A stretch of 64,000 nucleotides of DNA from Rhodospirillales bacterium. GTDB lineage: Bacteria; Pseudomonadota; Alphaproteobacteria; Rhodospirillales; Casp-alpha2. Below, piece after piece: positions 3,581 through 56,788 of this stretch (the stretch's first letter is position 1; each line of letters opens with the position of its first letter). Location: positions 36,801-100,800 of the forward strand of contig JAJFII010000111.1 in assembly GCA_021775095.1 (NCBI GenBank), written 5' to 3'. A program made the position numbers and the translations under genes. A model generated the notes under the pieces. It was given only the letters and a program-made list of their open reading frames with translations, was not told the DNA's origin and did no database searches.

Positions 3581-3673
3581 CCCCAGTGCCGTAACGATTG
3601 GCGATCCGGGTAAATTTACGCTAAAATAAAATTTCTAAGGCTTTCCCGTTCGGATCGTATAGGGGGATTAAGA

Positions 3674-4486: not shown

Positions 4487-4606
4487 CCGATTCGGCGGCA
4501 GGGAAAAAGATCATTATTACCTGTAAGGCAGCTTATGGGTACGCTTGTACTGAGGCCGGTGACGGAGTAAATTGCCCCGAAAAATTGCATACAAGGTTAT
4601 TCAATC

Positions 4607-10321: not shown

Positions 10322-10430
10322 CGAAAAGAGAAATTATCTCGATTTTTTTTCATAAATGCAATTGTTATTGTCCTGCGGTCCGTCCGGCTTTGTGTTCCGG
10401 GTTTCGGGCTCAAGCAGGGGAGGCAAAAAT

Positions 10431-13996: not shown

Positions 13997-14037
13997 GGCC
14001 GGATATGGGATCCGGTCAACAAACGGAGGACGAAACA

Positions 14038-27734: not shown

Positions 27735-29222
27735 TTAATCGTCCTGGGCTTTAAACGACGACCACAAGGCCCAGGCGAGAACCAGCGCCGCCGTCAGTAA
27801 AAAACCGGCACTTATGGGACGCTCGAGAAAAACCATGAAGTCGCCCCGCGACAGCAGCAACGAGCGTCGCATAAATTCCTCGATCATCGATCCGAGAACA
27901 AAACCGATCAACAGCGGCGCCGGCTCAAAGTGAAATATCCGCATGAGATATCCCATGACACCGAACACCAGGGTGACCCAGATGTCAAATATCGAGTTGT
28001 TGATGCTGTACACACCGACACAAATCAGCACGACAATGGTTGGATACATCAAGTAATAGGGGACCCGCAACAGCCGTACCCAGATCCCGATCAGGGGAAT
28101 ATTGAGAACCAATAACAACACGTTGCCGATCAAAAAACTGACGATCAGTCCCCAAAACAAATCGGCGTGTTCTGTCATCAATTTCGGGCCGGGAATGATG
28201 CCGTGGATCATTAGTGCGCCAAGCATCAGGGCCATGGTTGTGCTGCCGGGGATGCCCAGGGTCAATGTCGGTATAAACGCCGTTTGCGCCGCCGCATTGT
28301 TTGCCGATTCCGGGGCCATGACACCTTCAATGGCGCCCTTGCCAAATTGTGCGCTGTTTTTGGAGACCCGTTTTTCGATGGCATAACCGATATAGGAGGC
28401 AACGGTTTGACCGGTGCCGGGCAGGGCACCAAAGAATGAACCGATGGACCCGCCCCGTAAAACCGGGCCGATGGAACGAACCCATTCGTCTCTTTTTGGC
28501 AAAAACGAGGCAAAATTAATTTTATATTCCTTGCGTTCGATCAAGTTGCCGTGGATCGAGATGACAACCTCCGAAATCCCAAACAGCCCCATGGCGACAA
28601 TCACCAAACTGACGCCATCGCGCAGTTCAATAATGTCACCGGTAAACCGTTCAACGCCGGTATTGATGTCGACGCCGACGGTGCTCAACATGACCCCGAC
28701 GGTGACCATTAAAATGCCCTTGAGGGCACCGGACTGGCTAACAATCGACGCCGCAATTAATCCCAATACCATGACGGAGAAATATTCAGTCGGGCCAAAG
28801 GACAGGGCCACGGCGGACAACAGGGGAGACAAAAGGGTCATCACCAGAACGCCCATAATGCCACCGCAAAACGACGCAATTGCGGTCATAAACAAGGCGA
28901 CACCGGCGCGCCCCTGCTGGGCCATGGGATGGCCGTCCAAACAGGTGATCGACGCCGACGGTGTACCCGGAATGTTAAGAATAATGGAGGCGATGGAGCC
29001 GCCGTATTCAGCCCCGTAATAAACCCCGGCCAGCATGACCAAAGCGGTTGCCGGTTCCAGATGGAACGAGACCGGCAATAACATGGCAACGGCGGCCAGG
29101 GCACCAATTCCCGGCAGGACGCCGATAAACGTTCCGAGGGTGACGCCAACAAAACAGAATAATAAATTGGTTGGTGAGAACGCGGTCTCGATGCCAAGCG
29201 CGAGATTGTTTAACAAATCCAT
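27735..29222 (-). CDS. tctA: tripartite tricarboxylate transporter large permease TctA (second copy)
   Basis: The ORF is open to 29246. The ATG at 29222 (MDLLNN) lies just past the tctB stop. It shares long blocks with the TctA at 10905. Confidence 0.9.
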   Translation of the reverse strand: MDLLNNLALGIETAFSPTNLLFCFVGVTLGTFIGVLPGIGALAAVAMLLPVSFHLEPATALVMLAGVYYGAEYGGSIASIILNIPGTPSASITCLDGHPMAQQGRAGVALFMTAIASFCGGIMGVLVMTLLSPLLSAVALSFGPTEYFSVMVLGLIAASIVSQSGALKGILMVTVGVMLSTVGVDINTGVERFTGDIIELRDGVSLVIVAMGLFGISEVVISIHGNLIERKEYKINFASFLPKRDEWVRSIGPVLRGGSIGSFFGALPGTGQTVASYIGYAIEKRVSKNSAQFGKGAIEGVMAPESANNAAAQTAFIPTLTLGIPGSTTMALMLGALMIHGIIPGPKLMTEHADLFWGLIVSFLIGNVLLLVLNIPLIGIWVRLLRVPYYLMYPTIVVLICVGVYSINNSIFDIWVTLVFGVMGYLMRIFHFEPAPLLIGFVLGSMIEEFMRRSLLLSRGDFMVFLERPISAGFLLTAALVLAWALWSSFKAQDD

Positions 29223-29223
29223 G

Positions 29224-29670
29224 TCACGGCATCCGGAAGGCGGCAAAAGGAAGTTGCAGGGCGATAATAAAGATCAGCCATACGGCCAGGCTGACACATA
29301 CCGCCAAAAGGAATTTGCGACCAAAGCTCATGCGGGAGTCGGCCAAGCTGCTGGCCAGGACCGATAGCAGGGCAGCGGGCACGATGCCAAAATATTGAGT
29401 GACAAAGGCGAAGGCGACGACCCCGGCGCTAACTGCGGCGAAGGACCGCAGATCGATCGGTTCAATCGTCGCCGTTTCCACAAACGCCTTGATAACCACC
29501 GCAGCCGATAGGATCGAAACGATCACGCCCAGGACCAAGGGGAAATAGCCCGGCCCCATGCGCCGGGCCGTGCCCAATTCCATATCCAGTGATTGTGAGA
29601 CAAAAAAGAGACCCAGGGCGAGCAGCAACAGGCCACCAATCCCATTGACCCATTTTGCCGCGGACATCAT
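29224..29670 (-). CDS. tctB: TctB small membrane subunit (second copy)
   Basis: 148 aa with four TM segments and the LGTARRMGPGYFP motif, as in the other TctB. Confidence 0.75.
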   Translation of the reverse strand: MMSAAKWVNGIGGLLLLALGLFFVSQSLDMELGTARRMGPGYFPLVLGVIVSILSAAVVIKAFVETATIEPIDLRSFAAVSAGVVAFAFVTQYFGIVPAALLSVLASSLADSRMSFGRKFLLAVCVSLAVWLIFIIALQLPFAAFRMP

Positions 29671-30581
29671 AAAGCCGGCACCCTGAACTCGGGTCCGTCA
29701 TAGCTGTCGGGAATTCTAATTTGATCGTGTTTTAGGGCCCGCTCGGCGTCGGCAAGGGTTAAACGGATCTGCGCATTGACGTCCTTGCCAATGCTCAAGG
29801 TCACCGCATTGCCCTGTTTGAGCCCGATTTCGACCTTCGAAGATGGCAAATATCCCTGCTCTGCATGGTCGACGGCTTTTAGCACGGCGGCACCGATTTC
29901 TGCAATTGCCGAGCCGATAAAAATATCCGGATGTTGCTTGCACCAATCCATGGCATTGCCGATCTGATGGATACTTGCAACCCGGCAGGCCTCGATCACG
30001 CCGAGACGTGCGCCATTGAGCATGGTGAAAATAACGTCAACGTCCTGGGCAATCTGCGCGTCCGCCCAAATTTTGGTGACGTCATTGTCGTCCTGGGTGC
30101 CGCAAAAGGAAGTTAGAACCGTAATATCGGGCTTGGCAAATTTGGCCCCGGCAACATAGGCGGCGCGGCCCTTTAAACCCGGTTTTACCCGATGTCCCGA
30201 CAGGTGACCGACCACCCCGGTCTGGGAATAATGGGCGGCCAGAATTCCGGCAAGAAAAGCAGATTCTTCCTGGCGGACCTCATAACTGACTAAATTTGAA
30301 CCGGAAACCGAGCCCTGCACGACGGCAAATCTTTTATGGCTGAACTGATCTGCAATTTGCGGCGTAACCTTATCGCCCTGGCCACCAACAAAAATCACAA
30401 AATCAGAAGCCGCCGCCGTTGCCGACAACCGTTCGGCCATTATCCGTTCGTCATAGGGGACCCCGGACACAATGTCGACCTCATGGATATTTTTGCCTCG
30501 AATGGTTTCAGCGCCAGCCAGTGCGCTCGCGTTGAAACCATTGTCATGCAACTCGCCGACGAAAAATACCGATATTTTCAC
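29667..30581 (-). CDS. BMP-family (Med/PnrA-like periplasmic-binding-fold) protein lacking a signal peptide
   Basis: 304 aa. It begins MKISVFFVGELHDNGFN with no hydrophobic leader. The blocks QEESAFLAGILAA and GVVGHLSG resemble BMP/PnrA proteins. Its stop overlaps the tctB start (ATGA at 29667-29670). Confidence 0.7.
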   Translation of the reverse strand: MKISVFFVGELHDNGFNASALAGAETIRGKNIHEVDIVSGVPYDERIMAERLSATAAASDFVIFVGGQGDKVTPQIADQFSHKRFAVVQGSVSGSNLVSYEVRQEESAFLAGILAAHYSQTGVVGHLSGHRVKPGLKGRAAYVAGAKFAKPDITVLTSFCGTQDDNDVTKIWADAQIAQDVDVIFTMLNGARLGVIEACRVASIHQIGNAMDWCKQHPDIFIGSAIAEIGAAVLKAVDHAEQGYLPSSKVEIGLKQGNAVTLSIGKDVNAQIRLTLADAERALKHDQIRIPDSYDGPEFRVPAL

Positions 30582-30639
30582 TGCGCAACAGTCCCCGTTG
30601 TCATTCGAAGTGGTTCTCTCAATAGCAGACCTTAACGGA

Positions 30640-31605
30640 CTATTTTTTAGCTCCGGACGAGATGATCAGGGGTTTCCATTTTTCGATTTGCTCGGCGACA
30701 TAGGCCTGGAATTGTTGGGTGGTCTTTCGTTCGTGAACCAGACCCCAAAACTTAAACTTTTCCTGTACAGAGGGGAGTTGCACGATCTCGGCCAGTGCCA
30801 TGTCCATTTTATCAATGATATCTGGATCAAGTCCCGCTGGCGCTGTTATGCCCAGCCAGTTTTCCGCAACAATATCAAATCCCTGTTCCCTGAAAGTCAT
30901 CAGATCCGGGTTCGAGCGGGTGCGTGCCGGCGCGCTGATTGCCAAAGCCACCGTCGTCCCATCATTGATCGCCGGTATATTTTGCGGCAAAGCATCGAAC
31001 ATAATGGGAATGACACCACTGCGGAAATCCTGACGCATGGGGCGCGACCCTTTATAGGGAATGCTGACCAGTTCGATGTTCGCGAGTTTATTGAACTGAA
31101 AACCAACGACGTTACTCCATGACCCAACTCCAGAAGATCCAAAATCAAGTTTACCCGGTTCGGCTTTGGCTTTGGCGACGTATTCAGCCAGATTTTTAAC
31201 GCCCAAATCTGGCGATACAAACAGCCCGAGATAAACCGTGCCGATGTAGGAGACATGGGTAAAATCCTTAAGCGCGTCATAGGGCACTTTTTTAAATAAA
31301 GTCGGCGCGATGGAATAGGGTGCCAGGTTGGAAAGCATGAACGCGTGGCCATCGGCTTTTTCTCTTTTGAGGGCAACAGCCGCAACCGTTCCGCCGGCAC
31401 CGGGTTTGTTTTCAACGACAAACTGCTCACCAAATTTATCCGACAAATGGGTGCTGAGAAGTCGCGCCACGAGGTCACTTGAACCGCCCGGCGGGAACGA
31501 GACAAAAATCCGGACGGGTTTTGTCGGCCATTCCGCCGCTTGCAGATTTGGCCCGATAAATATCGCCAAACCCAATATCGCAAGTGTTAAAAATCTAAAT
31601 TTCAT
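30640..31605 (-). CDS. tctC: TTT periplasmic substrate-binding protein (TctC / Bug family, second copy)
   Basis: 321 aa with a signal peptide (LAILGLAIFIGPNLQA) and the Bug-family blocks ENKPGAGGT and IPYKGS. Confidence 0.9.
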   Translation of the reverse strand: MKFRFLTLAILGLAIFIGPNLQAAEWPTKPVRIFVSFPPGGSSDLVARLLSTHLSDKFGEQFVVENKPGAGGTVAAVALKREKADGHAFMLSNLAPYSIAPTLFKKVPYDALKDFTHVSYIGTVYLGLFVSPDLGVKNLAEYVAKAKAEPGKLDFGSSGVGSWSNVVGFQFNKLANIELVSIPYKGSRPMRQDFRSGVIPIMFDALPQNIPAINDGTTVALAISAPARTRSNPDLMTFREQGFDIVAENWLGITAPAGLDPDIIDKMDMALAEIVQLPSVQEKFKFWGLVHERKTTQQFQAYVAEQIEKWKPLIISSGAKK

Positions 31606-34066: not shown

Positions 34067-34236
34067 GATGCCGCATCGCTCTGTCGCTAAAAAAAAGGAA
34101 CGTCCTTAAGGGCCGGTCGTTTTGAATACGAGTGAAAATATTTTACCATATATATAGATTTTGAAAATATAATTGCATATTGAATTTACCTGATCCATAC
34201 TTGCCGTTCTGCAAATTCATAAAAAGGGAAAGAGCT

Positions 34237-35265
34237 ATGTCTGTAAGTAAATTAACTTTAGCCGGGCTTGCGGCCTTTATGCTGACCACATCCGCCCAGG
34301 CACTTGAATTGAAAGTCATGGGCCAGCCGGCCGGTTCCGGATTGATTCAAAAGAACAAAGAAGAACCGTTTTTTAAGGACCTTGCAAAAAACACCGGGAT
34401 TGATCTGACGGCCAATTACCGTCCGGTTGATGTGACGGGCATTCCTGACACCGATGGACTTCGGGTTTTGCGGCGGGGTTTGTTCGATATCGTCTCCTTG
34501 CGTGGTCCCCAGGTGAGCCGGGATGAACCGACAATCCTGGGGTTCGATCTTGTCGGCCTGAACCCGACCTTTGCAAAAGGCAAAGCCAATACCGATGCGT
34601 TCTTTGCGACCGTCGATCAACGGTTGCAGGAAAAGTTTAATGCCAAACTATTGGGCGTCTGGCCGGCCGGCCCACAGGTGGTTTTTTGTAAAACCGAAAT
34701 AACCAGCCTGAAGGACTTGAAGGGCCTTAAGGTTCGTGTCGGTGACCAAAGTGTCGCCGGGTTCATTGGCGGGCTCGGTGGAACCGGCGTCCCCATGCCC
34801 TTTGGCGAAGTGCAACCGTCGCTCGCCCGCGGTGTTGTCGATTGTGCAATCACCGGTCCCGCATCCGCCAATTCCGCCGGTTGGCCGGAAGTTACCAAAA
34901 CCGTTCTGCCGTTGGCACTTCAGTTGGCGATCAACGGCTATGCAATCAATCTTGATACCTGGAACAAGTTTTCCGCGTCCGATCAAGATAAAATGCAAGC
35001 CGCATTCAGCAAACTGGTAACCGAGATCTGGGCCTATTCGGAGGAACTTTATGCCGACTCATTGCGCTGCAATATTGGCGAAGAACCCTGCGAGCATGGC
35101 AAAAAATATAAACTGAAAAAAGTTCCTGTGTCCGACAGTGATTTGATGGCCGTTGCCGCGGCGGTGAAGAAGTCATCGCTCCCCGTATGGGCGAAACAAT
35201 GCAACGCGGTTAACAGCAGCTGTGAAGCCAATTGGATGGCAACCGTTGGAAAAAATCTGAACTAG
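34237..35265 (+). CDS. dctP: TRAP transporter substrate-binding protein (DctP family)
   Basis: The ORF is open from 34180. The ATG at 34237 gives a signal peptide (MSVSKLTLAGLAAFMLTTSAQA). Followed by dctQ and dctM. Confidence 0.8.
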   Translation: MSVSKLTLAGLAAFMLTTSAQALELKVMGQPAGSGLIQKNKEEPFFKDLAKNTGIDLTANYRPVDVTGIPDTDGLRVLRRGLFDIVSLRGPQVSRDEPTILGFDLVGLNPTFAKGKANTDAFFATVDQRLQEKFNAKLLGVWPAGPQVVFCKTEITSLKDLKGLKVRVGDQSVAGFIGGLGGTGVPMPFGEVQPSLARGVVDCAITGPASANSAGWPEVTKTVLPLALQLAINGYAINLDTWNKFSASDQDKMQAAFSKLVTEIWAYSEELYADSLRCNIGEEPCEHGKKYKLKKVPVSDSDLMAVAAAVKKSSLPVWAKQCNAVNSSCEANWMATVGKNLN

Positions 35266-35307
35266 GGTCAGGACCCTGTGACATGACAGCTCCCTGGAGG
35301 CGGCAAG

Positions 35308-35862
35308 ATGAGGAATTTTGGCAATTGGTTAGGTGCAACATTCGGATTGCTGATGCTCATCTTGTCCGTCGCTGTCGCCATAGAAACGATCATTCGAAAA
35401 CTTTTCACCATATCGCTTGGCGGCGTTGATGAGCTGTCGGGTTATGCCATCGCCGTGGGAGCGCCACTTGCCTTCACCGTAACATTGATTGATCGCGGCC
35501 ATATCCGTATCAATTTATTGCACCTCCGTCTGGGGCAACGATCGCAAGCCCTGTTAAACGGAATTGCCTCGATAATGCTCGGCCTGTTGGCTGGCTATAT
35601 GCTGATCTATTCGGTACGCACGTTTCTCGAGACCCGAGAGTACAACAGCATTTCGCAAACCCCATGGGCGACGCCACTGGTCTATCCGCAATTTTTTTGG
35701 GTCGCCGCGATGGCCGTGTTCGCTGGCTGCGCCCTGTGGCTGGCCGCCCGATCTTTGCGGCTGTTGGTTAATCGCAATTGGCAAACAATCAATCTGGAGT
35801 TCCAGCCACCGTCGGTGGAAGAAGAACTCGACAGAGAACTTGACGACCTCAAACGTCGCTGA
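35308..35862 (+). CDS. dctQ: TRAP transporter small permease (DctQ)
   Basis: 184 aa with four TM segments, positioned between dctP and dctM. Confidence 0.8.
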   Translation: MRNFGNWLGATFGLLMLILSVAVAIETIIRKLFTISLGGVDELSGYAIAVGAPLAFTVTLIDRGHIRINLLHLRLGQRSQALLNGIASIMLGLLAGYMLIYSVRTFLETREYNSISQTPWATPLVYPQFFWVAAMAVFAGCALWLAARSLRLLVNRNWQTINLEFQPPSVEEELDRELDDLKRR

Positions 35863-35880
35863 TCGTAAAGGATAGAATCC

Positions 35881-37179
35881 GTGAGCATTAGTGCAATCGC
35901 CATTGGGTTTGCCGCAATGTTGGCCTTGATGATGATCGGCATGCCGGTCGCCGTTTCAATTATCACCGTCGGTGTTTTCGGCGGCTACCTGGCATTTGGC
36001 ATGCCGTTGGTTGAATCCATGGGCGGGGTCATTTGGGGCACCTTAAACAACAGCATTATGACGGCGATCCCGTTGTTTATGCTGCTCGGAGAAATTTTAT
36101 TAAGAGGCGGCATCGCCGACCGCATGTATGATGCGTTGGCCGTATGGCTCGGACGGCTGCCCGGCGGATTGCTCCATACCAATATCGGCTGTTGTGCCCT
36201 GTTTGCCGCGACATCCGGGTCTTCAGTTGCCACGGCGGCGACGGTCGGCACCGTTGCGCTGCCGGCGCTTTCGGCGCGAAATTACCCGGAACGGGCAGCA
36301 TTGGGGTCGCTTGCCGCCGGCGGCACATTGGGCATTTTAATTCCGCCGAGTATAAATCTGTTGGTCTATGGATCCCTCGCCAACACCTCCGTTGGCCAAT
36401 TGTTCATTGCCGGCATTATCCCTGGATTGGCGATGACCAGTCTGTTTCTTTTGTACATCGCGCTGTTTCACCATAGTGACGGCGACCGGCAAACCCAGTC
36501 AATTGCCCTTTCCACAAAACTGAAACTGCTGGTAAATCTGGTGCCGCCGGCAATTATTTTTCTAATTGTTATGGGCAGTATTTATGGCGGAATTGCGACG
36601 CCGACGGAATCTGCTGCCCTCGGCGTTTTGGCCGCACTGTTTTTTGTCTGGCGCAACGGCCAGCTGAACTGGCCGCTGCTGCAACGGTGTTTTATGCAAT
36701 CGGCAAGCACGACGGGAATGGTCCTGTTGGTGATTGTCTGTGCCTTGTTGCTGAATGTAACCCTGTCAATGGTCGGTGCCGCGCAGGCCGTAACCGAATG
36801 GGTGGCAACCCTCGGACTGGACCGTACGGCACTCCTTCTTTTGTTGGTTTTGTTCTACATTATACTTGGCATGTTTATGGACGCCATGTCGATGCTCGTA
36901 TTGACCGTACCGATTGCCGTGCCGATGGTGGCGGCGGTTGGCGTTGATCCGATCTGGTTTGGGATTTTTATCGTGGTGATGTGCGAGATTGCGCTGATAA
37001 CGCCACCGGTCGGGATGAATTTGTTTGTCGTGCAAGGGGTCAGAAAAGGCGAAGGCGATTTTTCCGACGTGATGTACGGTGCCATGCCCTATGTGGGGAT
37101 CATGATGATATTTGTCGGCCTGTTGGTTTTTTTCCCGGAAATTGCCCTGTGGTTGCCGACCACCATGTCTGGTGAATAA
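35881..37179 (+). CDS. dctM: TRAP transporter large permease (DctM)
   Basis: 432 aa polytopic protein. It shares blocks with the other two DctM copies (GIPPS, PPVGMNLF). GTG start. Confidence 0.9.
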   Translation: MSISAIAIGFAAMLALMMIGMPVAVSIITVGVFGGYLAFGMPLVESMGGVIWGTLNNSIMTAIPLFMLLGEILLRGGIADRMYDALAVWLGRLPGGLLHTNIGCCALFAATSGSSVATAATVGTVALPALSARNYPERAALGSLAAGGTLGILIPPSINLLVYGSLANTSVGQLFIAGIIPGLAMTSLFLLYIALFHHSDGDRQTQSIALSTKLKLLVNLVPPAIIFLIVMGSIYGGIATPTESAALGVLAALFFVWRNGQLNWPLLQRCFMQSASTTGMVLLVIVCALLLNVTLSMVGAAQAVTEWVATLGLDRTALLLLLVLFYIILGMFMDAMSMLVLTVPIAVPMVAAVGVDPIWFGIFIVVMCEIALITPPVGMNLFVVQGVRKGEGDFSDVMYGAMPYVGIMMIFVGLLVFFPEIALWLPTTMSGE

Positions 37180-39670: not shown

Positions 39671-40564
39671 TTAAAACTGCTGCTGCAGTTTGCGAATATG
39701 GGCAACCCCGTTCGACGCCTCAATCGCCTGGCGTGTGGTGACGATGCCCCGGGCCCGCAACAGATCCAGCAACCGCAACCAGATGGCCGCCGTCACCAGC
39801 GCATCGCCCAGCGCCGTGTGCCGACCCTCGACGGTTACGCCCAAGCGGTTGGCAATGGCGTCGAGGGTATGGTTGTGACTGTCATGGTCGAGAAAAACCG
39901 ACAACAGCAGGGTATCCAATACCAACTGGTCAAATTTTACCCCGGCGGCGGCCTCCTTGAGGCTCAGGAATTTCATATCAAAGGCCGCGTTGTGGGCAAC
40001 CAAAATTGCGTCGCCCACATACCCGTGAAAATCCGCCAGAACCTCCGCTGCCGAGGCTTCGCCGGCAACCATCTGGTCGGTGATGCCATGAAATCGAATG
40101 GACGATTTTCGGATCGCAACGCCCGGGTTGATCAGGCGCGAAAAGCTGTCGGCGGTATCGACCCGCCCGTCGCTCACCCGGACCCCGGCAATCGACACCA
40201 GCTCGTCGCCGGCGGACGGATTTAGGCCGGTGGTTTCCGTATCAAACACCACAAAGTTTAAAGATTTTAGGGCCCGCCCGGCCAGCTCGCCGGCGTGCAT
40301 GGGGTGATCGAACCCGCCAAAGTCATAAAATTCCGGTCGCGCCGGCAGGTTTTTCCGGTCTTCCAGGCGGCGGCCCAGCCAGCGGTCGAGCACCGCCCAA
40401 CCGACACCGACCCACACAATTCCACCGACGCCGACGCTAAGGCCGGACAGCTTAAGGACAAAAGCGACACCCGCCAAAACCGCCAGGCCGCCGGCCAGCG
40501 CGGCAAAAACCCAGGCGCTCAGGTGCCGCACCGGCATCTGCAACAGTCGCTCCCTGACCTTCAT
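39671..40564 (-). CDS. membrane-anchored DEDDh 3'-5' exonuclease (DNA polymerase III epsilon-like)
   Basis: 297 aa with two N-terminal TM helices. Exo I FVVFDTETTGL, Exo II AHNAAFDMKFL, Exo III HTALGDALVTA. Confidence 0.85.
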   Translation of the reverse strand: MKVRERLLQMPVRHLSAWVFAALAGGLAVLAGVAFVLKLSGLSVGVGGIVWVGVGWAVLDRWLGRRLEDRKNLPARPEFYDFGGFDHPMHAGELAGRALKSLNFVVFDTETTGLNPSAGDELVSIAGVRVSDGRVDTADSFSRLINPGVAIRKSSIRFHGITDQMVAGEASAAEVLADFHGYVGDAILVAHNAAFDMKFLSLKEAAAGVKFDQLVLDTLLLSVFLDHDSHNHTLDAIANRLGVTVEGRHTALGDALVTAAIWLRLLDLLRARGIVTTRQAIEASNGVAHIRKLQQQF

Positions 40565-40674
40565 TTCTCCGTGCCCGCCAAATCAACGCCTCCGGTTGCC
40601 AGCCCGCCCACCTTAGCACAAGCGCCGGGTTTTGCGCAGGGGTGTGGCCCACTTTACGAGCATTGAACCTTATT

Positions 40675-40697
40675 TTATCTATTTCTGGGATAGATAA
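40675..40697. repeat. perfect inverted repeat in the AT-rich leader upstream of the Cas12/TnpB-like gene
   Basis: TTATCTA (40675-40681), a 9-nt spacer, then TAGATAA (40691-40697). Confidence 0.5.
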
Positions 40698-40750
40698 TTT
40701 CGATGTTTTGTGTAATTATCATGGCGTGTCTTGCGGAATTGGGGCGAATA

Positions 40751-41482
40751 ATGCCTGAAGTTCAATCGGCGTTTCTTACTGTTAAATACAAACTGCACAA
40801 TCCGTCGCAACGCCGACGGGCGTTGCTGCTTGATGCCATGCGCCGTGCTCATTTGGGTTATGATAAGATACTGAAGGCCGTAAGGTCCGATGTTGAAGCC
40901 ATTGCCGGCATCGAAGTTCGCAAAGACCGATGGGAAGCGGAGAAGACACTCGTCAAGAAATCGCAGGACCTGGCGAAGCCATTACCCATTGGGGCGGGTC
41001 CAAAGCAAGCCATCATCGCAGATGCTGTCGCGCAAGCCGCAAGTTACGTCGAGCTGAAGCGTGCCGACGATAACACATCCTATCCGACGACCCCCCGCCT
41101 CAAGGTGGAGAAATCCGATTTTGATGGCGCTATCGACGGAATCGCAAATTCACAGTCGATCATGGAAGAAAACGAATACCGAGACATGCTGGCAAAACTG
41201 TCGCGCCCCGGTATACCGCGCCCAATTAATATCCTCAAAAATCGTGTCAGCGATGGGGCGCTATTGTTAGAAGATCAAAAAGGGCGTTTGTTCGTTTTCA
41301 TCAATCTTTTACCAAGCACCGCAAAACGAAAACACCCGGTCGATTTGACAGGTTTGATTGATACCCGTACCGGAGAGGTCATGGCGAAAAAACAGCAAGT
41401 GGAGATCTGTTCCCGCTCGAAGGTAGCCAATGGCACACAAAGAAGTTCAGGAAACAGGGGACGTTACAATCGAGCCGTTTGA
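40751..41482 (+). CDS. TnpB/Cas12-like nuclease, N-terminal (WED/REC-like) reading frame, interrupted by a frameshift
   Basis: The ORF is open from 40703. The ATG at 40751 follows GGGG. MPEVQSAFLTVKYKLHNPSQRRRALLLDAMRRAHLGYDKIL follows the strand-then-helix pattern of TnpB/Cas12f N-termini. After the A6 run at 41387-41392 the frame decays into a short non-homologous tail. Confidence 0.7.
   Translation: MPEVQSAFLTVKYKLHNPSQRRRALLLDAMRRAHLGYDKILKAVRSDVEAIAGIEVRKDRWEAEKTLVKKSQDLAKPLPIGAGPKQAIIADAVAQAASYVELKRADDNTSYPTTPRLKVEKSDFDGAIDGIANSQSIMEENEYRDMLAKLSRPGIPRPINILKNRVSDGALLLEDQKGRLFVFINLLPSTAKRKHPVDLTGLIDTRTGEVMAKKQQVEICSRSKVANGTQRSSGNRGRYNRAV
41387..41392 (+). other. A6 homopolymer at the -1 frame junction of the nuclease gene
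   Basis: The zero frame reads GCG AAA AAA CAG. The -1 frame, or an A7 allele, reads ...MAKK-TASGDLFPLEGSQWHTKKF... and runs straight into the RuvC ORF. Confidence 0.7.
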
Positions 41483-42306
41483 TTTTTGACGGCCAGGATT
41501 TTTATTTTGCCTGTACCTTTCAATTTTCGTCAGAAATCAGAGAACCGACATCCTATCTGGGCAATGACCGGGGTATTGAAATGTTGGCGGCATGGTCGGT
41601 TGTGGACGGTGACGGGAAACGGATAGATGAGGGATGGATTAGCGGCGAGCGACTTCGTTCCGTGCAGCGTCGTCAAGAACGGGACCAAAAAGAAACGCAG
41701 CGCAAAGGTAAAGTTTATAAATCCAAAACGCGGCGCCATATTGCGGATGAAGAAGTCCACAAAGCCGCGAACGAAATTGTTGCGGCCGCAGTTAAACACA
41801 ATGCGCTTGTCGTCATGGAAGACTTGAAGACGATTTCTATGGGGCCGCATCATGCGAGGCCAAAAGGCGCGCGGAAAGGCGGATTTCGCCGAATGTTGAC
41901 GCGCGCGCAATATATGAAACTAAAACATTACGTCGGCTATCGGTTGTTGGTTGAAGGGGTCCCACCCATCCGGCGCGGAAAACCAAGTTTTATTGAAATC
42001 CATCCTGCTTATACGTCCGTTACCTGTTCAAAATGCGGACATAAGGACAAGGCAAACAGGCAATCACAGGCATTGTTTATATGTACAAAATGCGGACACA
42101 AAGAAAACGCAGACGTAAATGCCTCCAGCATGGTTGCTGGCAAAGGCATTCATTTTGATACAATTATTAGAGGGAGAAAAAAGGGGCAAAAACTGAAAGA
42201 CGGCGAACAATTTTCGGTCTGGTACGCCGATTTTAAAAGCGGGGCCAGGACACATGCAAATGCGTCTTGGTCATCGGCTCCGTGTTCTGCGAGGATGGGC
42301 GTATGA
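41479..42306 (+). CDS. TnpB/Cas12-like nuclease, C-terminal RuvC + zinc-ribbon reading frame
   Basis: RuvC-I YLGNDRGIEMLAAW, RuvC-II ALVVMEDLK, then IHPAYTSVTCSKCGH...FICTKCGH (CxxC..CxxC), and RuvC-III ENADVNASSMVAGKG. This frame is already open from 41362, reading ...TASGDLFPLEGSQWH. Confidence 0.85.
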   Translation: MIFDGQDFYFACTFQFSSEIREPTSYLGNDRGIEMLAAWSVVDGDGKRIDEGWISGERLRSVQRRQERDQKETQRKGKVYKSKTRRHIADEEVHKAANEIVAAAVKHNALVVMEDLKTISMGPHHARPKGARKGGFRRMLTRAQYMKLKHYVGYRLLVEGVPPIRRGKPSFIEIHPAYTSVTCSKCGHKDKANRQSQALFICTKCGHKENADVNASSMVAGKGIHFDTIIRGRKKGQKLKDGEQFSVWYADFKSGARTHANASWSSAPCSARMGV

Positions 42307-42457
42307 CCATGGTTTTCCATGGCTTACCCGCTTTGTGGATCGAAACTTCACGATGGAAAAACCGCTACGCGCAAGCTCGTTTAACGGTCGGCATAACCGG
42401 TTTCCATCACTTAAATTGTCAATTATCGTCGCAAGAACAAAGAGTTACACCATATCA

Positions 42458-42493
42458 GGCGCGGTTACTGGCGATTTGTGGGGTAACGGTGGC
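42458..42493 (+). repeat. CRISPR-like repeat 1 (36 nt)
   Basis: Exact copy of 42524-42559. It has internal GTTAC/GTAAC 5-bp complementarity. Confidence 0.8.
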
Positions 42494-42523
42494 TCGGTAA
42501 TCGTTAACGCACCATCAAACTGG

Positions 42524-42559
42524 GGCGCGGTTACTGGCGATTTGTGGGGTAACGGTGGC
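42524..42559 (+). repeat. CRISPR-like repeat 2 (36 nt)
   Basis: Exact copy of 42458-42493. Confidence 0.8.
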
Positions 42560-42591
42560 CCAATCAATTATTCGCTTTAACCTCGCGGTCC

Positions 42592-43875
42592 CTAATCGGG
42601 TCCCATGAAAAGGTCCGGTAAAAACAATACCAGCTCGGGAATGAAGGTGATCAACATCAACACCACGGCCAGGGGAATCAACATCGGCAATACGGCAATG
42701 ACGATCCGTTCAAACGGCACGCCGCTGACACTGGTCAGGATATAAAGCCCCAATCCCATGGGCGGTGTTGCGTGACCCATGAGAATTGCCAGGGTTAAAA
42801 CGAGTCCGAAATGAACCCGGTCAATTCCGTACTGATCGACAATCGGCAGGAGGATCGGCACCAGCATCAGCTTCAACGGCACATTCTCGATCACACACCC
42901 GAGAAGGAGGATCAGTATGATGCACAAAACCAAAAAGACGTTTTTGTCCTCGGTCAGCGACAGGAAGCTGTTGGCCAGCAGTTCGGGAATGCCTTCAATG
43001 GTCAGCACCCAACCCATGGCAATCGAGTAGCCGACGATAATCATGACGACGCCGGTCATGATCGTGGTATTTGCGATCGCCGCCCAAATGGCGTCCCATC
43101 GCAAGGTCCGCAGCACCGCGCCGACGAACAAAGAATAGACACAGGCCAAAACGCCGGCTTCCGTCGCCGAGGTGATGCCGGTGGTGATCGCGGTTAATAT
43201 GATAATCGGTGCGATCAGCGCCAGGATGCCGTCCTTGCCGGTCGCGATAATCTGGGAAAACGAGGCCTTCGGTTCGCGCGGGAAGCCCCGGCGTTTGGCG
43301 ATGATCCGGTTGTAAATCATCAGCGACAGGCCAACCAATACACCGGGCACAATGCCGCCTAAAAACAGCCGGCCGACGGATACACCGGACAGGAATGCAT
43401 AGACGACGAGGGCGATCGACGGTGGAATGATGGGCCCGATGATACCCGATGCCAGGGTGATGGCGGCGGCAAAATCCGGCGGATATCCACGGTCGCGCAT
43501 GGCCTTCACTTCGACCGCACCGAGGCCCGCCATATCCGCCGATGAGGATCCGGATACGCCGGCAAAAATCATCGATGACAGGACGTTGACTTGCGCTAAC
43601 CCGGCCTGAAAATGGCCGACCAACGAGGTGGCGAAGGCAAAAATGCGGTCGGTCATGCCGACCGCGTTCATCAGGTTGCCGGCGAGAATAAAAAACGGTA
43701 CGGCGACCAGAGCCGGTTTATCCACACCTTCGAGGATTTGGGTCGGTAAAATATACAAAGAATCGGACCAGCCGAAAAACATCAGCGAGGCAATGACCGA
43801 GGCACCCATGGCAAAGGATATGGGAATACCGAGCATGATAAGGACGAAAAAGCCGCCAATGAGAAGTGTCGCCAT
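42592..43875 (-). CDS. dctM: TRAP transporter large permease (DctM)
   Basis: 427 aa polytopic protein, with DctQ and DctP immediately upstream on the same strand. Confidence 0.9.
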   Translation of the reverse strand: MATLLIGGFFVLIMLGIPISFAMGASVIASLMFFGWSDSLYILPTQILEGVDKPALVAVPFFILAGNLMNAVGMTDRIFAFATSLVGHFQAGLAQVNVLSSMIFAGVSGSSSADMAGLGAVEVKAMRDRGYPPDFAAAITLASGIIGPIIPPSIALVVYAFLSGVSVGRLFLGGIVPGVLVGLSLMIYNRIIAKRRGFPREPKASFSQIIATGKDGILALIAPIIILTAITTGITSATEAGVLACVYSLFVGAVLRTLRWDAIWAAIANTTIMTGVVMIIVGYSIAMGWVLTIEGIPELLANSFLSLTEDKNVFLVLCIILILLLGCVIENVPLKLMLVPILLPIVDQYGIDRVHFGLVLTLAILMGHATPPMGLGLYILTSVSGVPFERIVIAVLPMLIPLAVVLMLITFIPELVLFLPDLFMGPD

Positions 43876-43890
43876 AAACAGGAACCTTAA

Positions 43891-44409
43891 TTAAGGGGAG
43901 GGGTCGGCCAGCTCATCCACCCGCCCGGTGATAACGGCGCGGGCCAGTTCAAGGGCCACATCACAGGCAATCAGAAGACAACTGATGAAAAACGGCACCG
44001 ATAACCAGAAGCGTTCCATTTCGACGAATTCCGACGCGTCTCCGACCTGCAGGGCGAGGATGCCAGGCGCCTCAATCAGCAACACCGCCAGAACAAACAC
44101 CGTCACAACTTTGCCGGCGACCCATGCGGCGAACCGCCCGCCCGGGGCAAGTCGTTCGATGACAAACGTGATCGCAATATCGCGTTTGCGCCGATAGATC
44201 ACGAAAAACACAAAAAAACTCATCCATACAAACAGCACGGTGGTCCAGGGAAAGACAAAGGAAAGGCCGCTGCCGGTGACATTGCGAATGGCGATGTTGG
44301 CGGCATTACCCGCCAACATTAACGTCAAACAGAGCACGGCGATGACCAGAAACAGCCGTTCAATCTGGTCGAACCAGCGGTTCAATCTGTCAATTGTGTT
44401 CATCTGCAA
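43891..44409 (-). CDS. dctQ: TRAP transporter small permease (DctQ)
   Basis: 172 aa with four TM segments, between dctP and dctM. Confidence 0.85.
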   Translation of the reverse strand: MQMNTIDRLNRWFDQIERLFLVIAVLCLTLMLAGNAANIAIRNVTGSGLSFVFPWTTVLFVWMSFFVFFVIYRRKRDIAITFVIERLAPGGRFAAWVAGKVVTVFVLAVLLIEAPGILALQVGDASEFVEMERFWLSVPFFISCLLIACDVALELARAVITGRVDELADPSP

Positions 44410-44418
44410 GGGCCCTGG

Positions 44419-45429
44419 TCAGGGATTGTTGGCCTTGTTGACCCCGGCTCTGAACCCGGCCGGCAATTCCCCGTCTTTTTCCCACTGGTCGAGAAGCGAA
44501 GCGACCTTTGCGACAAACGGTTTTGGATCCAGGGTCGAAAAGGTTACTCCTTTGGCTTTCATCCGGGCAAACGCCTGATCGACGGAGGACTGCATGACTT
44601 CGTGACTGTAAGCCGACGCCGCCGCATGGGAGTCCAGCAAAATTTTCTGATCGGCCTTGGAGAGTTTGTCGAAGGCGGCACCGTTCATCATAAAGGCAAT
44701 GGATTGGAAAAATTCCTGCAAGCGGGTGACGTTCGGGGCAACTTCATAAAATCGCATGGACTCAACCAGCGCGGCGGGGCTGGTTACCGCCTCAATAATG
44801 CCGCTCTTCATCGATTGATAAGTCGCGGTCCAGGCCAGGGTGCGGACCTCGGCACCGAGGGAATTATAGGTCAACACACCGAGCTTGCTATTGGCCTGGC
44901 GCATTTTGAGGCCTTTAAATCCGTCAATTGAAGTGATCGGGTTCTTCGACACAACAACCCGAAAGGGGCCCCGCAAAACACCCGTGATATCGCCCAATAC
45001 ACGAACACCACTGGCCGTTTCGGCTTTTTCACGCCACCCCGTCACCAGTTCGGAATTCATGAACCGGACCCAGGATTCCCGATCATTGAAGACGAACCGA
45101 GCGTAAACCCAGGCCATCTCCTTTGCCCATTTGTTCAACCAGGCGGGGCCTTCGGCGTAAATATGAACGGTGCCCTTTTGTAATTGTTCGAGAACCGCCT
45201 TGGATTTTCCCAGTTGCTCCGAGGGGAAAACCTTGACGTTAAAGCTGCCGCCGGAGCGTCGGTTCACTTCATCGGCAAAGAACTGGAAGACCTTACCTTC
45301 CGGACTTCCCGCTGGCATCTTGCTGGCAAAGCGCCAACTTTCGGCGTTGGCCGTCGCGACAAAAGCCATGGTCGCCAGCGCCGTAACCACACCCGCGATA
45401 ATATTTTTTGTGTATTTTCCCTGTGTCAT
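44419..45429 (-). CDS. dctP: TRAP transporter substrate-binding protein (DctP family)
   Basis: 336 aa with a signal peptide (VVTALATMAFVATANA) and a DctP-like fold pattern. Confidence 0.9.
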   Translation of the reverse strand: MTQGKYTKNIIAGVVTALATMAFVATANAESWRFASKMPAGSPEGKVFQFFADEVNRRSGGSFNVKVFPSEQLGKSKAVLEQLQKGTVHIYAEGPAWLNKWAKEMAWVYARFVFNDRESWVRFMNSELVTGWREKAETASGVRVLGDITGVLRGPFRVVVSKNPITSIDGFKGLKMRQANSKLGVLTYNSLGAEVRTLAWTATYQSMKSGIIEAVTSPAALVESMRFYEVAPNVTRLQEFFQSIAFMMNGAAFDKLSKADQKILLDSHAAASAYSHEVMQSSVDQAFARMKAKGVTFSTLDPKPFVAKVASLLDQWEKDGELPAGFRAGVNKANNP

Positions 45430-56652: not shown

Positions 56653-56788
56653 CTTAAATGTCCGGCTTGCAGCAGCTGAACGCGACCGGTCGCTTCAGTT
56701 GCTGCGTTGATTTCAAATTGTCGGGAGGTGCCGCAGAAAGACAGTTGGGAAGACGCTGGCGCGCCTCCCCAAACAAAGCCTTGGTAGA

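What the first reader, a model, noticed from the sequence alone, without database searches (positions are those of the whole stretch)
40751..42559. Stand-alone miniature type V-like locus: ~518-aa TnpB/Cas12-like RuvC nuclease followed by a two-repeat CRISPR array
The two adjacent ORFs (40703-41482 and 41479-42306) read together as one TnpB/Cas12-type effector.

Protein evidence:
- The N-terminus (LTVKYKLHNPSQRRRALLLDAMRRAHLGYDKIL) has the strand-plus-helix signature that opens TnpB/Cas12f proteins.
- The C-terminal part carries RuvC-I (GNDRGIEMLA), RuvC-II (VVMEDLK), HPAYTSVTC, a CSKCGH...CTKCGH zinc ribbon, and RuvC-III (NADVNAS).
- The D/E/D triad is intact, so catalysis looks preserved.

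Array evidence:
- It lies 151 nt downstream on the same strand.
- Two identical 36-nt repeats (42458-42493 and 42524-42559) bracket a unique 30-nt spacer. This is canonical CRISPR geometry.

Context:
- The 64 kb window contains no cas1, cas2 or cas4, no Y1 or serine tnpA, and no other cas genes.
- About 518 aa is larger than a typical TnpB (about 400 aa) and falls in the miniature Cas12 range.

Together this looks like an uncharacterised V-U-like effector or a TnpB-to-Cas12 evolutionary intermediate that uses a repeat-spacer unit instead of a right-end-derived omega RNA.
Basis: partly seen in the sequence, partly recalled or inferred. Interest (0 to 1): 0.92.

Follow-up and report, generated by a model that had tools for sequence, protein, structure and literature searches.

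The report
Frameshifted miniature Cas12f-like CRISPR locus
This is a small stand-alone CRISPR locus (a Cas12f-like nuclease gene, a guide-scaffold RNA and a one-spacer array) from a rare family found mostly on phages and other mobile elements, but this copy has a broken nuclease gene and the kind of system is already known.

Summary
Two identical 36-nt repeats (42458-42493, 42524-42559) flank a 30-nt spacer. The two ORFs join into one RuvC/zinc-ribbon nuclease through a 1-nt deletion in an A-run (41387-41392).

Intact homologues of about 506 aa (70-80% identical over 97-98% of the joined protein) occur in a marine podophage, a P4-like satellite and Alphaproteobacteria MAGs. More distant members (26-39%) occur in a Planctomycetota MAG, cultured Salinibacter phages and other contigs. 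Where enough downstream DNA is available, most loci carry a same-strand array of period 66 (up to 13 repeats, with spacer changes at the gene-proximal end). A few have one or two repeats or none.

Its 5' anti-repeat starts at the ancestral stop codon and pairs with the 3' half of each repeat. Covariation supports this strongly.

The closest solved structure is Cas12f. No curated Cas12 subtype model reaches its threshold. No cas1, cas2, cas4 or tnpA was found nearby.

The window copy is degraded: a frameshift (also present in an independent assembly), a lost stop codon and a single spacer with no target found.

Verdict: a real but ordinary member of the known adaptation-less miniature type V class (Cas12f-like, V-U or TranC-like). 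Interest is moderate to low.

The parts
40565..40750 (+). Upstream intergenic region, presumed to hold the promoter of the nuclease gene. G+C falls from about 0.63 in the flanking window to about 0.51 in the window that spans this region.
   Evidence: No conserved left-end sequence is shared with homologous loci. No sigma-70 consensus match was found here. The promoter assignment is an inference.
40751..41392 (+). Nuclease gene, N-terminal part (WED/REC, 214 codons, frame 2), up to and including the A-run.
   Evidence: The start MPEVQSAFLTVKYKLHN aligns with the homologues' start. The N-terminal half alone finds 123 clusters in 1.84 billion representatives. The AF2 model of homologue P0006 shows a strand followed by a helical REC region.
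41387..41392 (+). A6 homopolymer, the site of the 1-nt deletion (-1 frame change) that splits the gene.
   Evidence: The homologues have no A-run here, so this is not a conserved programmed frameshift. The truncated 259-aa product is also called in Logan assembly SRR15505512.
41392..42270 (+). Nuclease gene, C-terminal part (frame 1) to the ancestral stop position. It contains RuvC-I (GNDRG), RuvC-II (VVMEDL), the CxxC...CxxC zinc ribbon (TNB) and RuvC-III (NADVNA).
   Evidence: Pfam Cas12f1-like_TNB scores 53 bits against a cutoff of 26.3. NCBIfam Cas12f2 scores 116, Cas12e 91 and TnpB 85 bits, all below their cutoffs. The catalytic and zinc-binding columns are conserved in the family alignment.
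42268..42306 (+). Lost stop codon (TAG to TGG at 42268-42270) and the resulting 12-codon read-through into the scaffold RNA.
   Evidence: All close homologues end ...CTTAG|TCATCG...; the window has CTTGG.
42270..42283 (+). Anti-repeat (GTCATCG G CTCCGT). It pairs with repeat positions 30-36 (7 bp) and 21-26 (6 bp).
   Evidence: RNAalifold helices 1 and 2. Helix 1 is 100% paired and 4 of its 7 pairs show compensatory changes. The same pairing covaries across the whole family.
42270..42408 (+). Core of the tracrRNA-like / omega-RNA-like scaffold: the anti-repeat plus two compound stem-loops.
   Evidence: 55 pairs, 27 with compensatory changes; 95.3% of cells paired against 37-49% in the slid controls; 0 of 500 shuffles reach the observed values. 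The window keeps 53 of 55 pairs. nhmmer gives a single hit in the window, 42270-42413, E 1e-44. There is no Rfam match.
42409..42457 (+). Variable linker or leader between scaffold and first repeat. It ends in the conserved ATCA.
   Evidence: Alignment A2, columns 155-204.
42458..42493 (+). CRISPR repeat 1 (36 nt).
   Evidence: It is homologous to the repeats of 20 or more related loci.
42494..42523 (+). The single spacer (30 nt), TCGGTAATCGTTAACGCACCATCAAACTGG.
   Evidence: No match elsewhere in the window, in INPHARED phages, in PLSDB plasmids or in IMG/VR.
42524..42559 (+). CRISPR repeat 2 (36 nt), identical to repeat 1. It lies 32 nt from the stop codon of the convergent dctM gene.
   Evidence: An independent contig (L064) breaks inside this repeat.

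Best explanation
The locus is a recently degraded chromosomal copy of a compact type V CRISPR-Cas module without adaptation genes. It has three co-oriented parts.

1. A gene for a Cas12f-like RuvC/zinc-ribbon nuclease of about 506 aa.
2. A structured scaffold RNA of about 140 nt that begins at the gene's stop codon, where a TnpB omega RNA would lie.
3. A short repeat-spacer array.

Inferred mechanism, by analogy with Cas12f and TnpB:
- The scaffold's 5' anti-repeat pairs with the 3' half of each 36-nt repeat.
- The nuclease binds this duplex and uses the 30-nt spacer 3' of the repeat to find complementary DNA next to a PAM that is still unknown.
- It cuts the DNA with its single RuvC site.

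In relatives carried by phages, a satellite and islands, the arrays hold up to 12 spacers and change at the gene-proximal end. That fits a role in conflicts between mobile elements or in defence.

In this window the nuclease gene carries a 1-nt deletion and has lost its stop codon, and only one spacer remains. The copy is therefore most likely inactive or nearly so, although its RNA part is intact.

Shown: the anatomy, the family linkage, the RNA covariation, the fold and the frameshift. Inferred: RNA-guided DNA cleavage, the PAM, the biological role and the inactivity.
For: Protein:
- The joined ORFs match intact proteins of about 506 aa at 70-80% identity over 97-98% of the query.
- The catalytic D/E/D positions and four zinc-binding cysteines are conserved.
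- The AF2 model has pLDDT 84 and pTM 0.71. Its best structural matches are AsCas12f and OsCas12f (E 2e-17, TM 0.52/0.62), then Cas12e. TnpB (E 2.5e-7) and LaTranC (E 2.1e-7) rank far lower by E-value.
- The best profiles are Cas12f2/Cas14b, matching the C-terminal half only.

Array linkage:
- Same-strand arrays of period 66 lie about 190-300 nt downstream in L001, L004, L010-12, L014-15, L017, L022-33, L045, L062 and L070.
- A 7-repeat array also follows the gene in cultured Salinibacter phages.
- Phage variants L001, L003 and L027 share distal spacers and differ in the proximal ones.

RNA:
- 55 consensus pairs, 27 with compensatory changes, and strong shuffle and slide controls.
- The anti-repeat and the repeat 3' end covary across distant clades.

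Context:
- No cas1, cas2, cas4 or tnpA in the precomputed or scanned neighbours.

Degradation in the window:
-.
Against: - No protospacer was found for any of 85 spacers, so targeting, the PAM and an immune role are not shown.
- No transcript data are available.
- The source of new spacers is unknown, because no adaptation genes are linked.
- The frameshift could still be a read-level error if the NCBI and Logan assemblies come from the same reads.
- Apart from the frameshift and the lost stop, the ORF has no other lesion, and the RNA keeps 53 of 55 pairs. Inactivation would therefore be very recent, and low-level -1 slippage on the A-run cannot be excluded.
- Some relatives have only one or two repeats (L068, L069, the soil clade), which blurs the line with omega-RNA-type elements.
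Confidence: 0.8

Rival explanations
1. It is an active or recently active TnpB-type (OMEGA) mobile element. In this reading the 'repeats' are duplications of the omega-RNA 3' end at the transposon's right end. The DNA after the last repeat serves as the guide, directing cleavage of empty sites so that the element is retained or copied (homing).
For: - The scaffold lies where an omega RNA lies, starting at the stop codon.
- L068 has a single repeat followed by unique DNA.
- In the soil clade, two partial repeats end in a conserved terminus, after which the flanks differ between contigs.
- In L011 the last repeat directly abuts a diverged 225-nt duplicate of the purN 3' end.
- At 70-80% protein identity every locus has a different genomic context.
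- One distant member reaches the NCBIfam TnpB subfamily cutoff: P0027 scores 106.8 against a cutoff of 100.
Against: - No Y1 TnpA was found next to any locus examined. A serine recombinase occurs only in the rearranged locus L016, about 1 kb away.
- Near-identical proteins always sit in the same context and as a single copy.
- Arrays carry up to 12 unrelated spacers with polarised turnover, and the terminal repeat is often degenerate.
- No conserved left end was found.
- Only L011 shows a duplicated flank.
- The window has one copy only.
Confidence: 0.08
2. The gene is intact and functional in the organism. The frameshift would be a sequencing or assembly error, or would be bypassed by -1 ribosomal slippage on the A-run, so the locus would be a working one-spacer CRISPR system.
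For: - This is the only frame-disrupting lesion in about 1.5 kb.
- The catalytic residues are present.
- The RNA is as well paired as in loci with intact genes.
- Homopolymers are prone to sequencing error, and lysine A-runs are known slippery sequences (general knowledge).
Against: - The same truncated 259-aa ORF is called in the NCBI record and in the Logan assembly of SRR15505512.
- The exact repaired 518-aa protein is not in the 15-billion-protein collection.
- The A-run is not conserved in the homologues.
- A second lesion, the lost stop codon, points to relaxed selection.
Confidence: 0.1
3. It is a domesticated host regulator. In this reading a guide-RNA-directed DNA binder or nuclease has been retained in the chromosome to control a host gene through its single spacer or through the flank after the last repeat.
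For: - The location is chromosomal and not on a mobile element.
- The array is minimal.
- Exaptation of TnpB and Cas12f for regulation is documented (PMC10691335).
Against: - The spacer has no match in the 64-kb window.
- The gene is frameshifted.
- The catalytic residues are retained, whereas known regulatory derivatives have lost them.
- Orthologues in other hosts sit in unrelated contexts.
Confidence: 0.02

Closest known systems
Cas12f (type V-F, including Cas14b / V-F2 profiles; solved AsCas12f, OsCas12f, SpCas12f1)
   Same: - Size of about 500 aa.
- Layout of WED, REC, RuvC and a TNB zinc ribbon.
- Best structural match (E 2e-17, TM 0.52/0.62).
- Best profile hits (NCBIfam Cas12f2 104-116 bits; PADLOC Cas12f/Cas14b 100-110 bits).
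- A tracrRNA-type scaffold encoded between the gene and a downstream array.
- Usually no adaptation genes (PMC10691335).
   Different: - Only the C-terminal RuvC half matches the profiles, and scores are far below the cutoff (116 against 450).
- Identity to solved Cas12f proteins is 16-18%.
- The N-terminal half is specific to this family (123 clusters worldwide).
- The anti-repeat starts at the stop codon.
- The family is found mainly on phages, satellites and islands of Alphaproteobacteria, Salinibacter and Pseudoalteromonas.
- Dimerisation and the PAM are untested.
TnpB with omega (right-end) RNA of IS200/IS605 and IS607 elements
   Same: - RuvC and zinc-ribbon core.
- The guide-scaffold RNA is encoded on the same strand, starting at the 3' end of the gene.
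- Some relatives have a single repeat-like segment followed by unique DNA (L068).
   Different: - Larger, with an expanded REC region.
- Not associated with TnpA, not multi-copy, and no recognisable left and right ends.
- The guide comes from an array of diverse spacers.
- The window ORF scores 85 against the NCBIfam TnpB cutoff of 100.
- The structural match to TnpB is far less significant than to Cas12f (E 2.5e-7 against 2e-17).
TranC (transposon-CRISPR intermediate) clades and Cas12-U (V-U) groups
   Same: - The concept is the same: a TnpB-derived compact nuclease with a short downstream array, a scaffold split into tracr-like and crRNA parts, and no cas1, cas2 or cas4.
- Repeats of about 36 nt and median arrays of about 5 repeats are reported for some clades (bioRxiv 10.64898/2026.03.27.714800; PMC10691335).
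   Different: - Assignment to a clade could not be tested, because no TranC or V-U reference sequences were available.
- The solved LaTranC is a far less significant structural match than Cas12f (E 2.1e-7 against 2e-17; TM 0.38/0.40 against 0.52/0.62) and a non-significant sequence match (E 0.65).
Cas12e (CasX)
   Same: - Second-best RuvC profile and PDB sequence match (91 bits; E 8e-14).
- Depends on a tracrRNA.
   Different: - CasX is about 900-1000 aa and is associated with cas1, cas2 and cas4.
- Only the RuvC region aligns.
Phage-encoded miniature Cas12 systems (Cas12p 'hacker', Cas-phi / Cas12j)
   Same: - Compact Cas12 with a short array carried by phages, presumably aimed at rival genetic elements (bioRxiv 10.1101/2025.01.20.633832).
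   Different: - Different families. Cas12p (9jfs) is a weak fold match (TM 0.34) and gives no sequence hit.
- Cas12j uses no tracrRNA.

Membership tests
CRISPR array | Two or more near-identical direct repeats of 23-55 nt separated by unique spacers of similar length. | tested here: met
   2 x 36 nt, identical, with a 30-nt spacer. This is the minimum possible, and only the family context makes it convincing.
CRISPR array | Spacer content varies between related loci, with polarised gain. | tested here: met
   Met for the family, not for the window. L001, L003 and L027 share distal spacers and differ in the gene-proximal ones.
CRISPR array | Spacers match foreign DNA (protospacers) next to a PAM. 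| tested here: not met
   85 spacers gave no match in INPHARED or PLSDB. Four exact scans of IMG/VR found nothing. The databases cover these marine and soil viromes poorly, so the result is weak.
Type V effector (Cas12 in general) | A single RuvC-like nuclease domain with the D/E/D triad, interrupted by a zinc-ribbon/TNB insertion, placed C-terminally after the WED and REC regions. | tested here: met
   Pfam Cas12f1-like_TNB is above its cutoff and RuvC_1 is just below. The catalytic and zinc-binding columns are conserved. The AF2 fold matches Cas12f, Cas12e, Cas12k and Cas12g.
Cas12f (V-F) | The curated profile is matched above its threshold (NCBIfam Cas12f2 NF049972, cutoff 450). | tested here: not met
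   82-116 bits, C-terminal half only. PADLOC Cas12f/Cas14b scores 92-110 bits for the four closer members tested and 23 bits for P0021, also C-terminal only.
Cas12f (V-F) | A tracrRNA whose anti-repeat pairs with the repeat, encoded next to the array. | tested here: met
   A computational prediction with strong covariation support. Expression and processing were not tested.
Cas12f (V-F) | An asymmetric homodimer on one guide RNA, and a 5' T-rich PAM. | not testable with these tools
   Requires biochemistry or a structure of the complex.
TnpB / OMEGA (IS200/IS605, IS607) | Association with a Y1 or serine TnpA, or recognisable left and right ends and multiple mobile copies. | tested here: not met
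   No TnpA in the neighbours of about 15 loci. There is a single copy in the window. Near-identical proteins always sit in one context. No conserved left end was found. The rearranged locus L016 has a serine recombinase about 1 kb upstream.
TnpB / OMEGA (IS200/IS605, IS607) | An omega RNA overlapping or abutting the 3' end of the gene, with the guide taken from the flanking DNA. | tested here: inconclusive
   The scaffold position fits. However, guides are array spacers in most loci. Only L068 (one repeat) and L011 (terminal repeat abutting a purN duplicate) look omega-like.
TnpB / OMEGA (IS200/IS605, IS607) | NCBIfam guided_TnpB subfamily score of at least 100. | tested here: not met
   Window ORF2 scores 85.1, P0006 71.7 and P0001 89.9. 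Only the distant P0027 scores 106.8.
TranC / Cas12-U group | Phylogenetic placement in a named clade of the TnpB/Cas12 tree. | not testable with these tools
   Reference sequences and trees were not available. The supplements of the relevant papers are not held.

The most novel reading that the evidence does not exclude
The family could be a living continuum between omega-RNA-guided and CRISPR-guided nucleases. Repeat number runs from 1 to 13 on the same scaffold.

Some members might use the unit 'terminal repeat plus flank' as a homing guide. In L011 the last repeat reads straight into a diverged duplicate of the purN 3' end. The intact purN copy upstream carries TTTC immediately 5' of the homologous site and has 5 mismatches in the first 14 nt of that site.

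This is the layout expected if RNA-guided cleavage of a naive purN allele promoted recombinational insertion of a cassette that brings its own cleavage-resistant replacement 3' end, that is, a natural 'cleave-and-rescue' or homing module.
Probability: 0.08. Interest if true: 0.8.

Novelty: new member of a known kind. Interest (0 to 1): 0.4.

Why it matters
For the organism, this locus is probably a dying remnant and matters little.

For the field, the family behind it offers several things:
- It is a rare lineage of Cas12f-like effectors of about 506 aa: about 60 clusters at E 1e-10 or better, and 123 at E 1e-3 or better, among 1.84 billion representatives.
- Its guide RNA architecture is clearly defined.
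- It occurs in cultured phages (182 Salinibacter ruber M8 phage records, where the gene is annotated only as hypothetical) and in abundant Tara Oceans phage contigs.
- It therefore gives compact candidates for genome editing.
- It offers a tractable system for asking how phage-borne arrays gain spacers without linked cas1 and cas2.
- It adds one more data point on the route from TnpB to Cas12.

None of this changes current concepts.

Tried and rejected
- **Rfam.** A scan of 40500-42700 at E up to 1 found nothing.
- **Spacer targets.** The window spacer was searched in the window, in INPHARED and in IMG/VR. 85 family spacers were searched in INPHARED and PLSDB. Three phage spacers were searched in IMG/VR. 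Nothing was found, so no PAM could be derived.
- **Empty-site comparison for the window.** The only other contigs from this organism (L064, L072) carry the same locus and break in or before the array. The exonuclease neighbour is not on record.
- **Programmed frameshift.** Rejected, because the A-run is absent from the homologues.
- **Internal repeat hairpin (GTTAC...GTAAC).** It is not maintained in L004, L011, L023 or L025 (by inspection). RNAalifold instead pairs the repeat's 3' half with the scaffold.
- **Flank duplication as a family rule.** Only L011 shows it, plus a recombinase-related rearrangement in L016.
- **Similarity of L011 spacer 2 to the purN junction.** By inspection 16 of 17 nt match. 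This is suggestive, but over the full length it is only 19 of 30, the same as background matches, so it was not used.
- **Conserved left end or promoter.** Upstream regions do not align between loci.
- **Promoter and terminator scans.** Counts were at or below the shuffle expectation, so they are uninformative.
- **Single-sequence fold of the window RNA.** z = -1.7, not informative on its own.
- **Assignment to a TranC or V-U clade.** Not possible, because the papers or their supplements are not held.
Full report
**1. The observation**

The sequence is as described. Two exact 36-nt copies of GGCGCGGTTACTGGCGATTTGTGGGGTAACGGTGGC lie at 42458-42493 and 42524-42559, with a unique 30-nt spacer between them. 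With up to 3 mismatches there is no other copy in the 64 kb, and none is expected by chance.

ORFs 40703-41482 and 41479-42306 are adjacent in frames 2 and 1. Translating all frames shows that homology passes from one frame to the other at an A6 run, 41387-41392. Re-reading one A gives a continuous 518-aa protein starting at 40751.

**2. The protein**

- The joined protein finds 47 relatives. The best 12 are intact proteins of 504-528 aa, 68-80% identical over 96-98% of the query. The window gene is therefore split.
- Nucleotide comparison shows that the homologues read ...GEVM-xx-K/R-TS-xGDLFPLEG... without an A-run. The window has a simple 1-nt deletion, not a conserved programmed frameshift.
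- The truncated 259-aa product is on record from both NCBI and a Logan assembly of run SRR15505512. That independent contig (L072) has the same two ORFs. The repaired 518-aa sequence is not on record.
- A second lesion is present. All close homologues stop at ...CTTAG|TCATCG..., whereas the window has CTTGG (42268-42270). This adds 12 codons.
- The C-terminal half matches Pfam Cas12f1-like_TNB above its cutoff. It matches NCBIfam Cas12f2 (116 bits, cutoff 450), Cas12e (91, cutoff 200) and TnpB (85, cutoff 100) below their cutoffs. The N-terminal half matches nothing. PADLOC gives Cas12f/Cas14b profiles at about 100-110 bits for the closer members, again for the C-terminal half only.
- The family alignment conserves the RuvC D/E/D positions and four zinc-binding cysteines.
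- An AF2 model of homologue P0006 (pLDDT 84.3, pTM 0.71) is closest to AsCas12f and OsCas12f (E about 2e-17, TM 0.52/0.62, 16-18% identity). Cas12e comes next. TnpB 8h1j (E 2.5e-7) and LaTranC (E 2e-7) rank much lower by E-value.
- Searching the family-specific N-terminal 214 aa against 1.84 billion representatives finds only 123 clusters at E 1e-3 or better, 61 at 1e-10 and 12 at 1e-30. The family is rare.

**3. Is the array real?**

Two repeats alone would be weak evidence. The relatives settle the question.

- The phage contig L001 (P0006) is a Tara Oceans contig of about 37 kb with terminase and head-tail connector genes. It has 13 repeats with period 66 starting 187 nt after the stop codon.
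- L004 (P0001) lies in an island with an integrase, an AlpA-like HTH protein and a primase, which resembles a P4-type satellite. It has 4 repeats.
- MAG loci from Sphingomonadales, Rhodospirillaceae and other Alphaproteobacteria, a Planctomycetota MAG and many metagenome contigs have 3-11 repeats of 36 nt with 30-nt spacers. These are always downstream and on the same strand.
- The repeats are homologous to the window's.
- Terminal repeats are often degenerate.
- Three variants of the same phage (L001, L003, L027) share distal spacers and differ in the gene-proximal ones. This is the usual signature of polarised spacer gain and loss.
- tblastn also finds full-length relatives in cultured phages. 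The 182 Salinibacter ruber M8 phage records (27% identity) annotate the gene as a hypothetical protein, and L074 has a 7-repeat array of period about 66. Pseudoalteromonas phage J2-1 (35%) has the gene unannotated and no array.
- A Pseudoalteromonas spongiae plasmid (36%) has eight 28-nt repeats upstream of the gene.
- The paper that may describe those Salinibacter isolates (not confirmed: 'OR896' does not occur in it) mentions CRISPR only once, in an unrelated context (PMC11631230).

**4.

- The DNA between the stop codon and the first repeat is conserved at the nucleotide level across loci whose proteins are only 63-80% identical.
- An alignment of nine loci folds into a consensus of 55 pairs. 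When the pairs are counted, 27 show changes on both sides.
- 95.3% of cells are paired, against 37-49% when partners are slid by 1-3 columns. None of 500 column shuffles reaches the observed values.
- The outermost helices pair the scaffold's first 14 nt (window 42270-42283, GTCATCG-G-CTCCGT) with positions 30-36 and 21-26 of the repeat. This is a repeat:anti-repeat duplex.
- The 7-bp helix covaries across the whole superfamily: CGATGAC/GTCATCG, CTGTGAC/GTTACAG, CGACGAC/GTTGTCG, CTAGAGG/CCTCTAG, CCAAAGG/CTTTTGG, GCGAAAG/CTTTCGC, CACAGC/GCTGTG and TGAAAG/CTTTCA.
- The window RNA keeps 53 of 55 pairs, as many as in loci with intact genes.
- A profile of the scaffold hits the window once, at 42270-42413. 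Rfam has no match.
- The RNA occupies the position of a TnpB omega RNA but behaves like a tracrRNA towards an array.

**5. Context**

- 50 of the 59 largest non-overlapping ORFs of at least 110 aa in the window were scanned. They are transporters (TRAP, TTT, ABC), regulators and metabolic enzymes. There is no cas, tnpA or integrase domain, no tRNA gene and no second array.
- The module of about 1.95 kb sits between a divergent RNase_T-family exonuclease gene and the 3' end of a convergent dctM gene. Its G+C is about 0.47-0.54, against about 0.60-0.63 upstream and 0.55-0.60 downstream.
- Neighbours of about 15 related loci, by precomputed Pfam, also lack cas1, cas2, cas4 and tnpA.
- Near-identical proteins always occur in the same context. 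Proteins 70-80% identical occur in entirely different contexts (phage, satellite, chromosome). This fits horizontal transfer of a small module and does not fit active transposition.

**6. Mechanism**

Shown: the three-part anatomy, the co-variation of scaffold and repeat, a Cas12f-like fold with catalytic residues present, and array turnover in relatives.

Inferred from established Cas12f and TnpB biology:
- The scaffold and the pre-crRNA are transcribed from the gene strand.
- The anti-repeat pairs with each repeat.
- The nuclease binds the duplex and the spacer 3' of the repeat guides RuvC cleavage of PAM-flanked DNA.

No protospacer was found for the window spacer or for 84 other spacers. 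The searches covered INPHARED, PLSDB and exact scans of IMG/VR. The PAM and the targets therefore remain unknown.

With a frameshift, a lost stop codon and one spacer, the window copy is most likely inactive. The lesions must be recent, because nothing else is damaged.

**7. Rival readings**

- A TnpB-type mobile element is the main rival. Three things favour it: the scaffold position, a one-repeat relative whose ORF also reads through the scaffold (L068), and L011. In L011 the last of seven identical repeats directly abuts a 225-nt, 87%-identical duplicate of the purN 3' end. The intact purN copy has TTTC just 5' of the homologous site and 5 mismatches in the first 14 nt.
- Against it: this layout is unique among the loci examined, no TnpA or multi-copy evidence exists, and the arrays hold many unrelated spacers. 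I keep it as the most novel reading, at low probability.
- A sequencing error or ribosomal slippage could rescue the gene, with about 0.1 probability.

**8. Comparison with what is known**

- Independent capture of arrays by TnpB-like nucleases is well documented. About 40 Cas12-U groups are described, with the array typically downstream, 'mimicking the location of the omega RNA', and mostly without adaptation genes (PMC10691335). About 50 such independent events are inferred (PMC12669027).
- TranC clades with 32-38-nt repeats and median arrays of about 5 repeats, some on phages, have been characterised (bioRxiv 10.64898/2026.03.27.714800).
- Phage-encoded miniature Cas12 nucleases are also known (bioRxiv 10.1101/2025.01.20.633832).
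- The present family reaches no curated subtype threshold that I could test, and I could not assign it to a named V-U or TranC clade.
- In kind it is the same thing, so I file it as a new member of a known kind.

**9. Verdict**

Interest is 0.4, and it rests on the family (rare, phage-borne, well-defined RNA, present in cultured phages). The window's degraded copy adds little.

Noticed in passing
L011:4643-4877 and 7134-7365 (Sphingomonadales MAG JACFMS010000007): The nuclease-plus-array module sits just after the purN stop codon. The DNA immediately after the last repeat is a diverged (87%) 225-nt duplicate of the purN 3' end, with a long identical core. The intact copy has TTTC 5' of the homologous site and 5 mismatches in the first 14 nt. 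This could reflect Campbell-type or RNA-guided homing insertion.
   Followed up: partly
L074 (Salinibacter phage 10_1, OR896163) 2842-5314, plus 181 other Salinibacter ruber M8 phage records: Cultured Salinibacter phages encode a distant family member (27% identity) annotated as a hypothetical protein, followed by a 7-repeat array of period about 66. The paper that may describe these isolates (not confirmed) mentions CRISPR only once, in an unrelated context (PMC11631230).
   Followed up: partly
L075 (Pseudoalteromonas spongiae plasmid NZ_CP023400) 2475-2931: Here a family member (36% identity, annotated as a TnpB family protein) has eight 28-nt repeats with period 60 immediately upstream of the gene, not downstream. 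By my recollection the geometry resembles type I-F. This may be a separate capture of an array.
   Followed up: no
L068:1167-2960 (P0021, 576 aa): The ORF reads through the scaffold, as in the window, and only one repeat-like unit follows. This is an omega-RNA-like single-guide layout, in a region with PIN/MazE toxin-antitoxin genes and an SNase gene.
   Followed up: partly
L034-L037, L040, L056-L058, L060, L061 (soil metagenomes): A clade about 33% identical to the window protein has no true array. It has two partial repeat 3' halves (GGGGTGACCAGAGG) and a conserved end (TGATGACGGACTC). After that end the downstream flanks differ between contigs, while the upstream aquaporin-like gene (NPA motifs, by inspection) is shared. 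This looks like a recombination hotspot at the array end.
   Followed up: partly
L016:3002-6163: A truncated family member is fused to a duplicate of the 3' end of a serine recombinase gene (by inspection of the translation) that lies about 1 kb upstream. This may be a rearranged IS607-like arrangement.
   Followed up: no
window 42254-42580; L001:7505-8197; L004:7505-7954: The period is 66, a multiple of 3, so arrays can stay open in one frame. Gene callers therefore predict spurious 'proteins' across the scaffold and array (for example GAVTGDLWGNGG repeated in the window ORF).
   Followed up: yes
L010 (CAXBML010000026, 'Coxiellaceae' MAG) and L018 (WJJK01000131, 'Altiarchaeales' MAG): L010 carries a protein 100% identical to P0006, the same array, and has the length (37,466 nt) of the P0006 phage contigs. 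L018 has a terminase-like gene upstream of the nuclease. Both therefore look like phage or virus sequences binned into cellular MAGs.
   Followed up: partly
window 40675-40697: A perfect 8-bp inverted repeat (TTATCTAT / ATAGATAA, 7-nt loop) lies in the AT-rich region about 55 nt upstream of the nuclease start codon. It could be an operator. It is not conserved in other loci.
   Followed up: no
window 34180-37179, 42592-45429, 54758-57799; 10356-15018 and 27735-31605: The window carries three TRAP (DctPQM) transporter gene sets and two TTT (TctABC) transporter gene sets, which suggests a versatile organic-acid-using proteobacterium. The organism was not identified.
   Followed up: no
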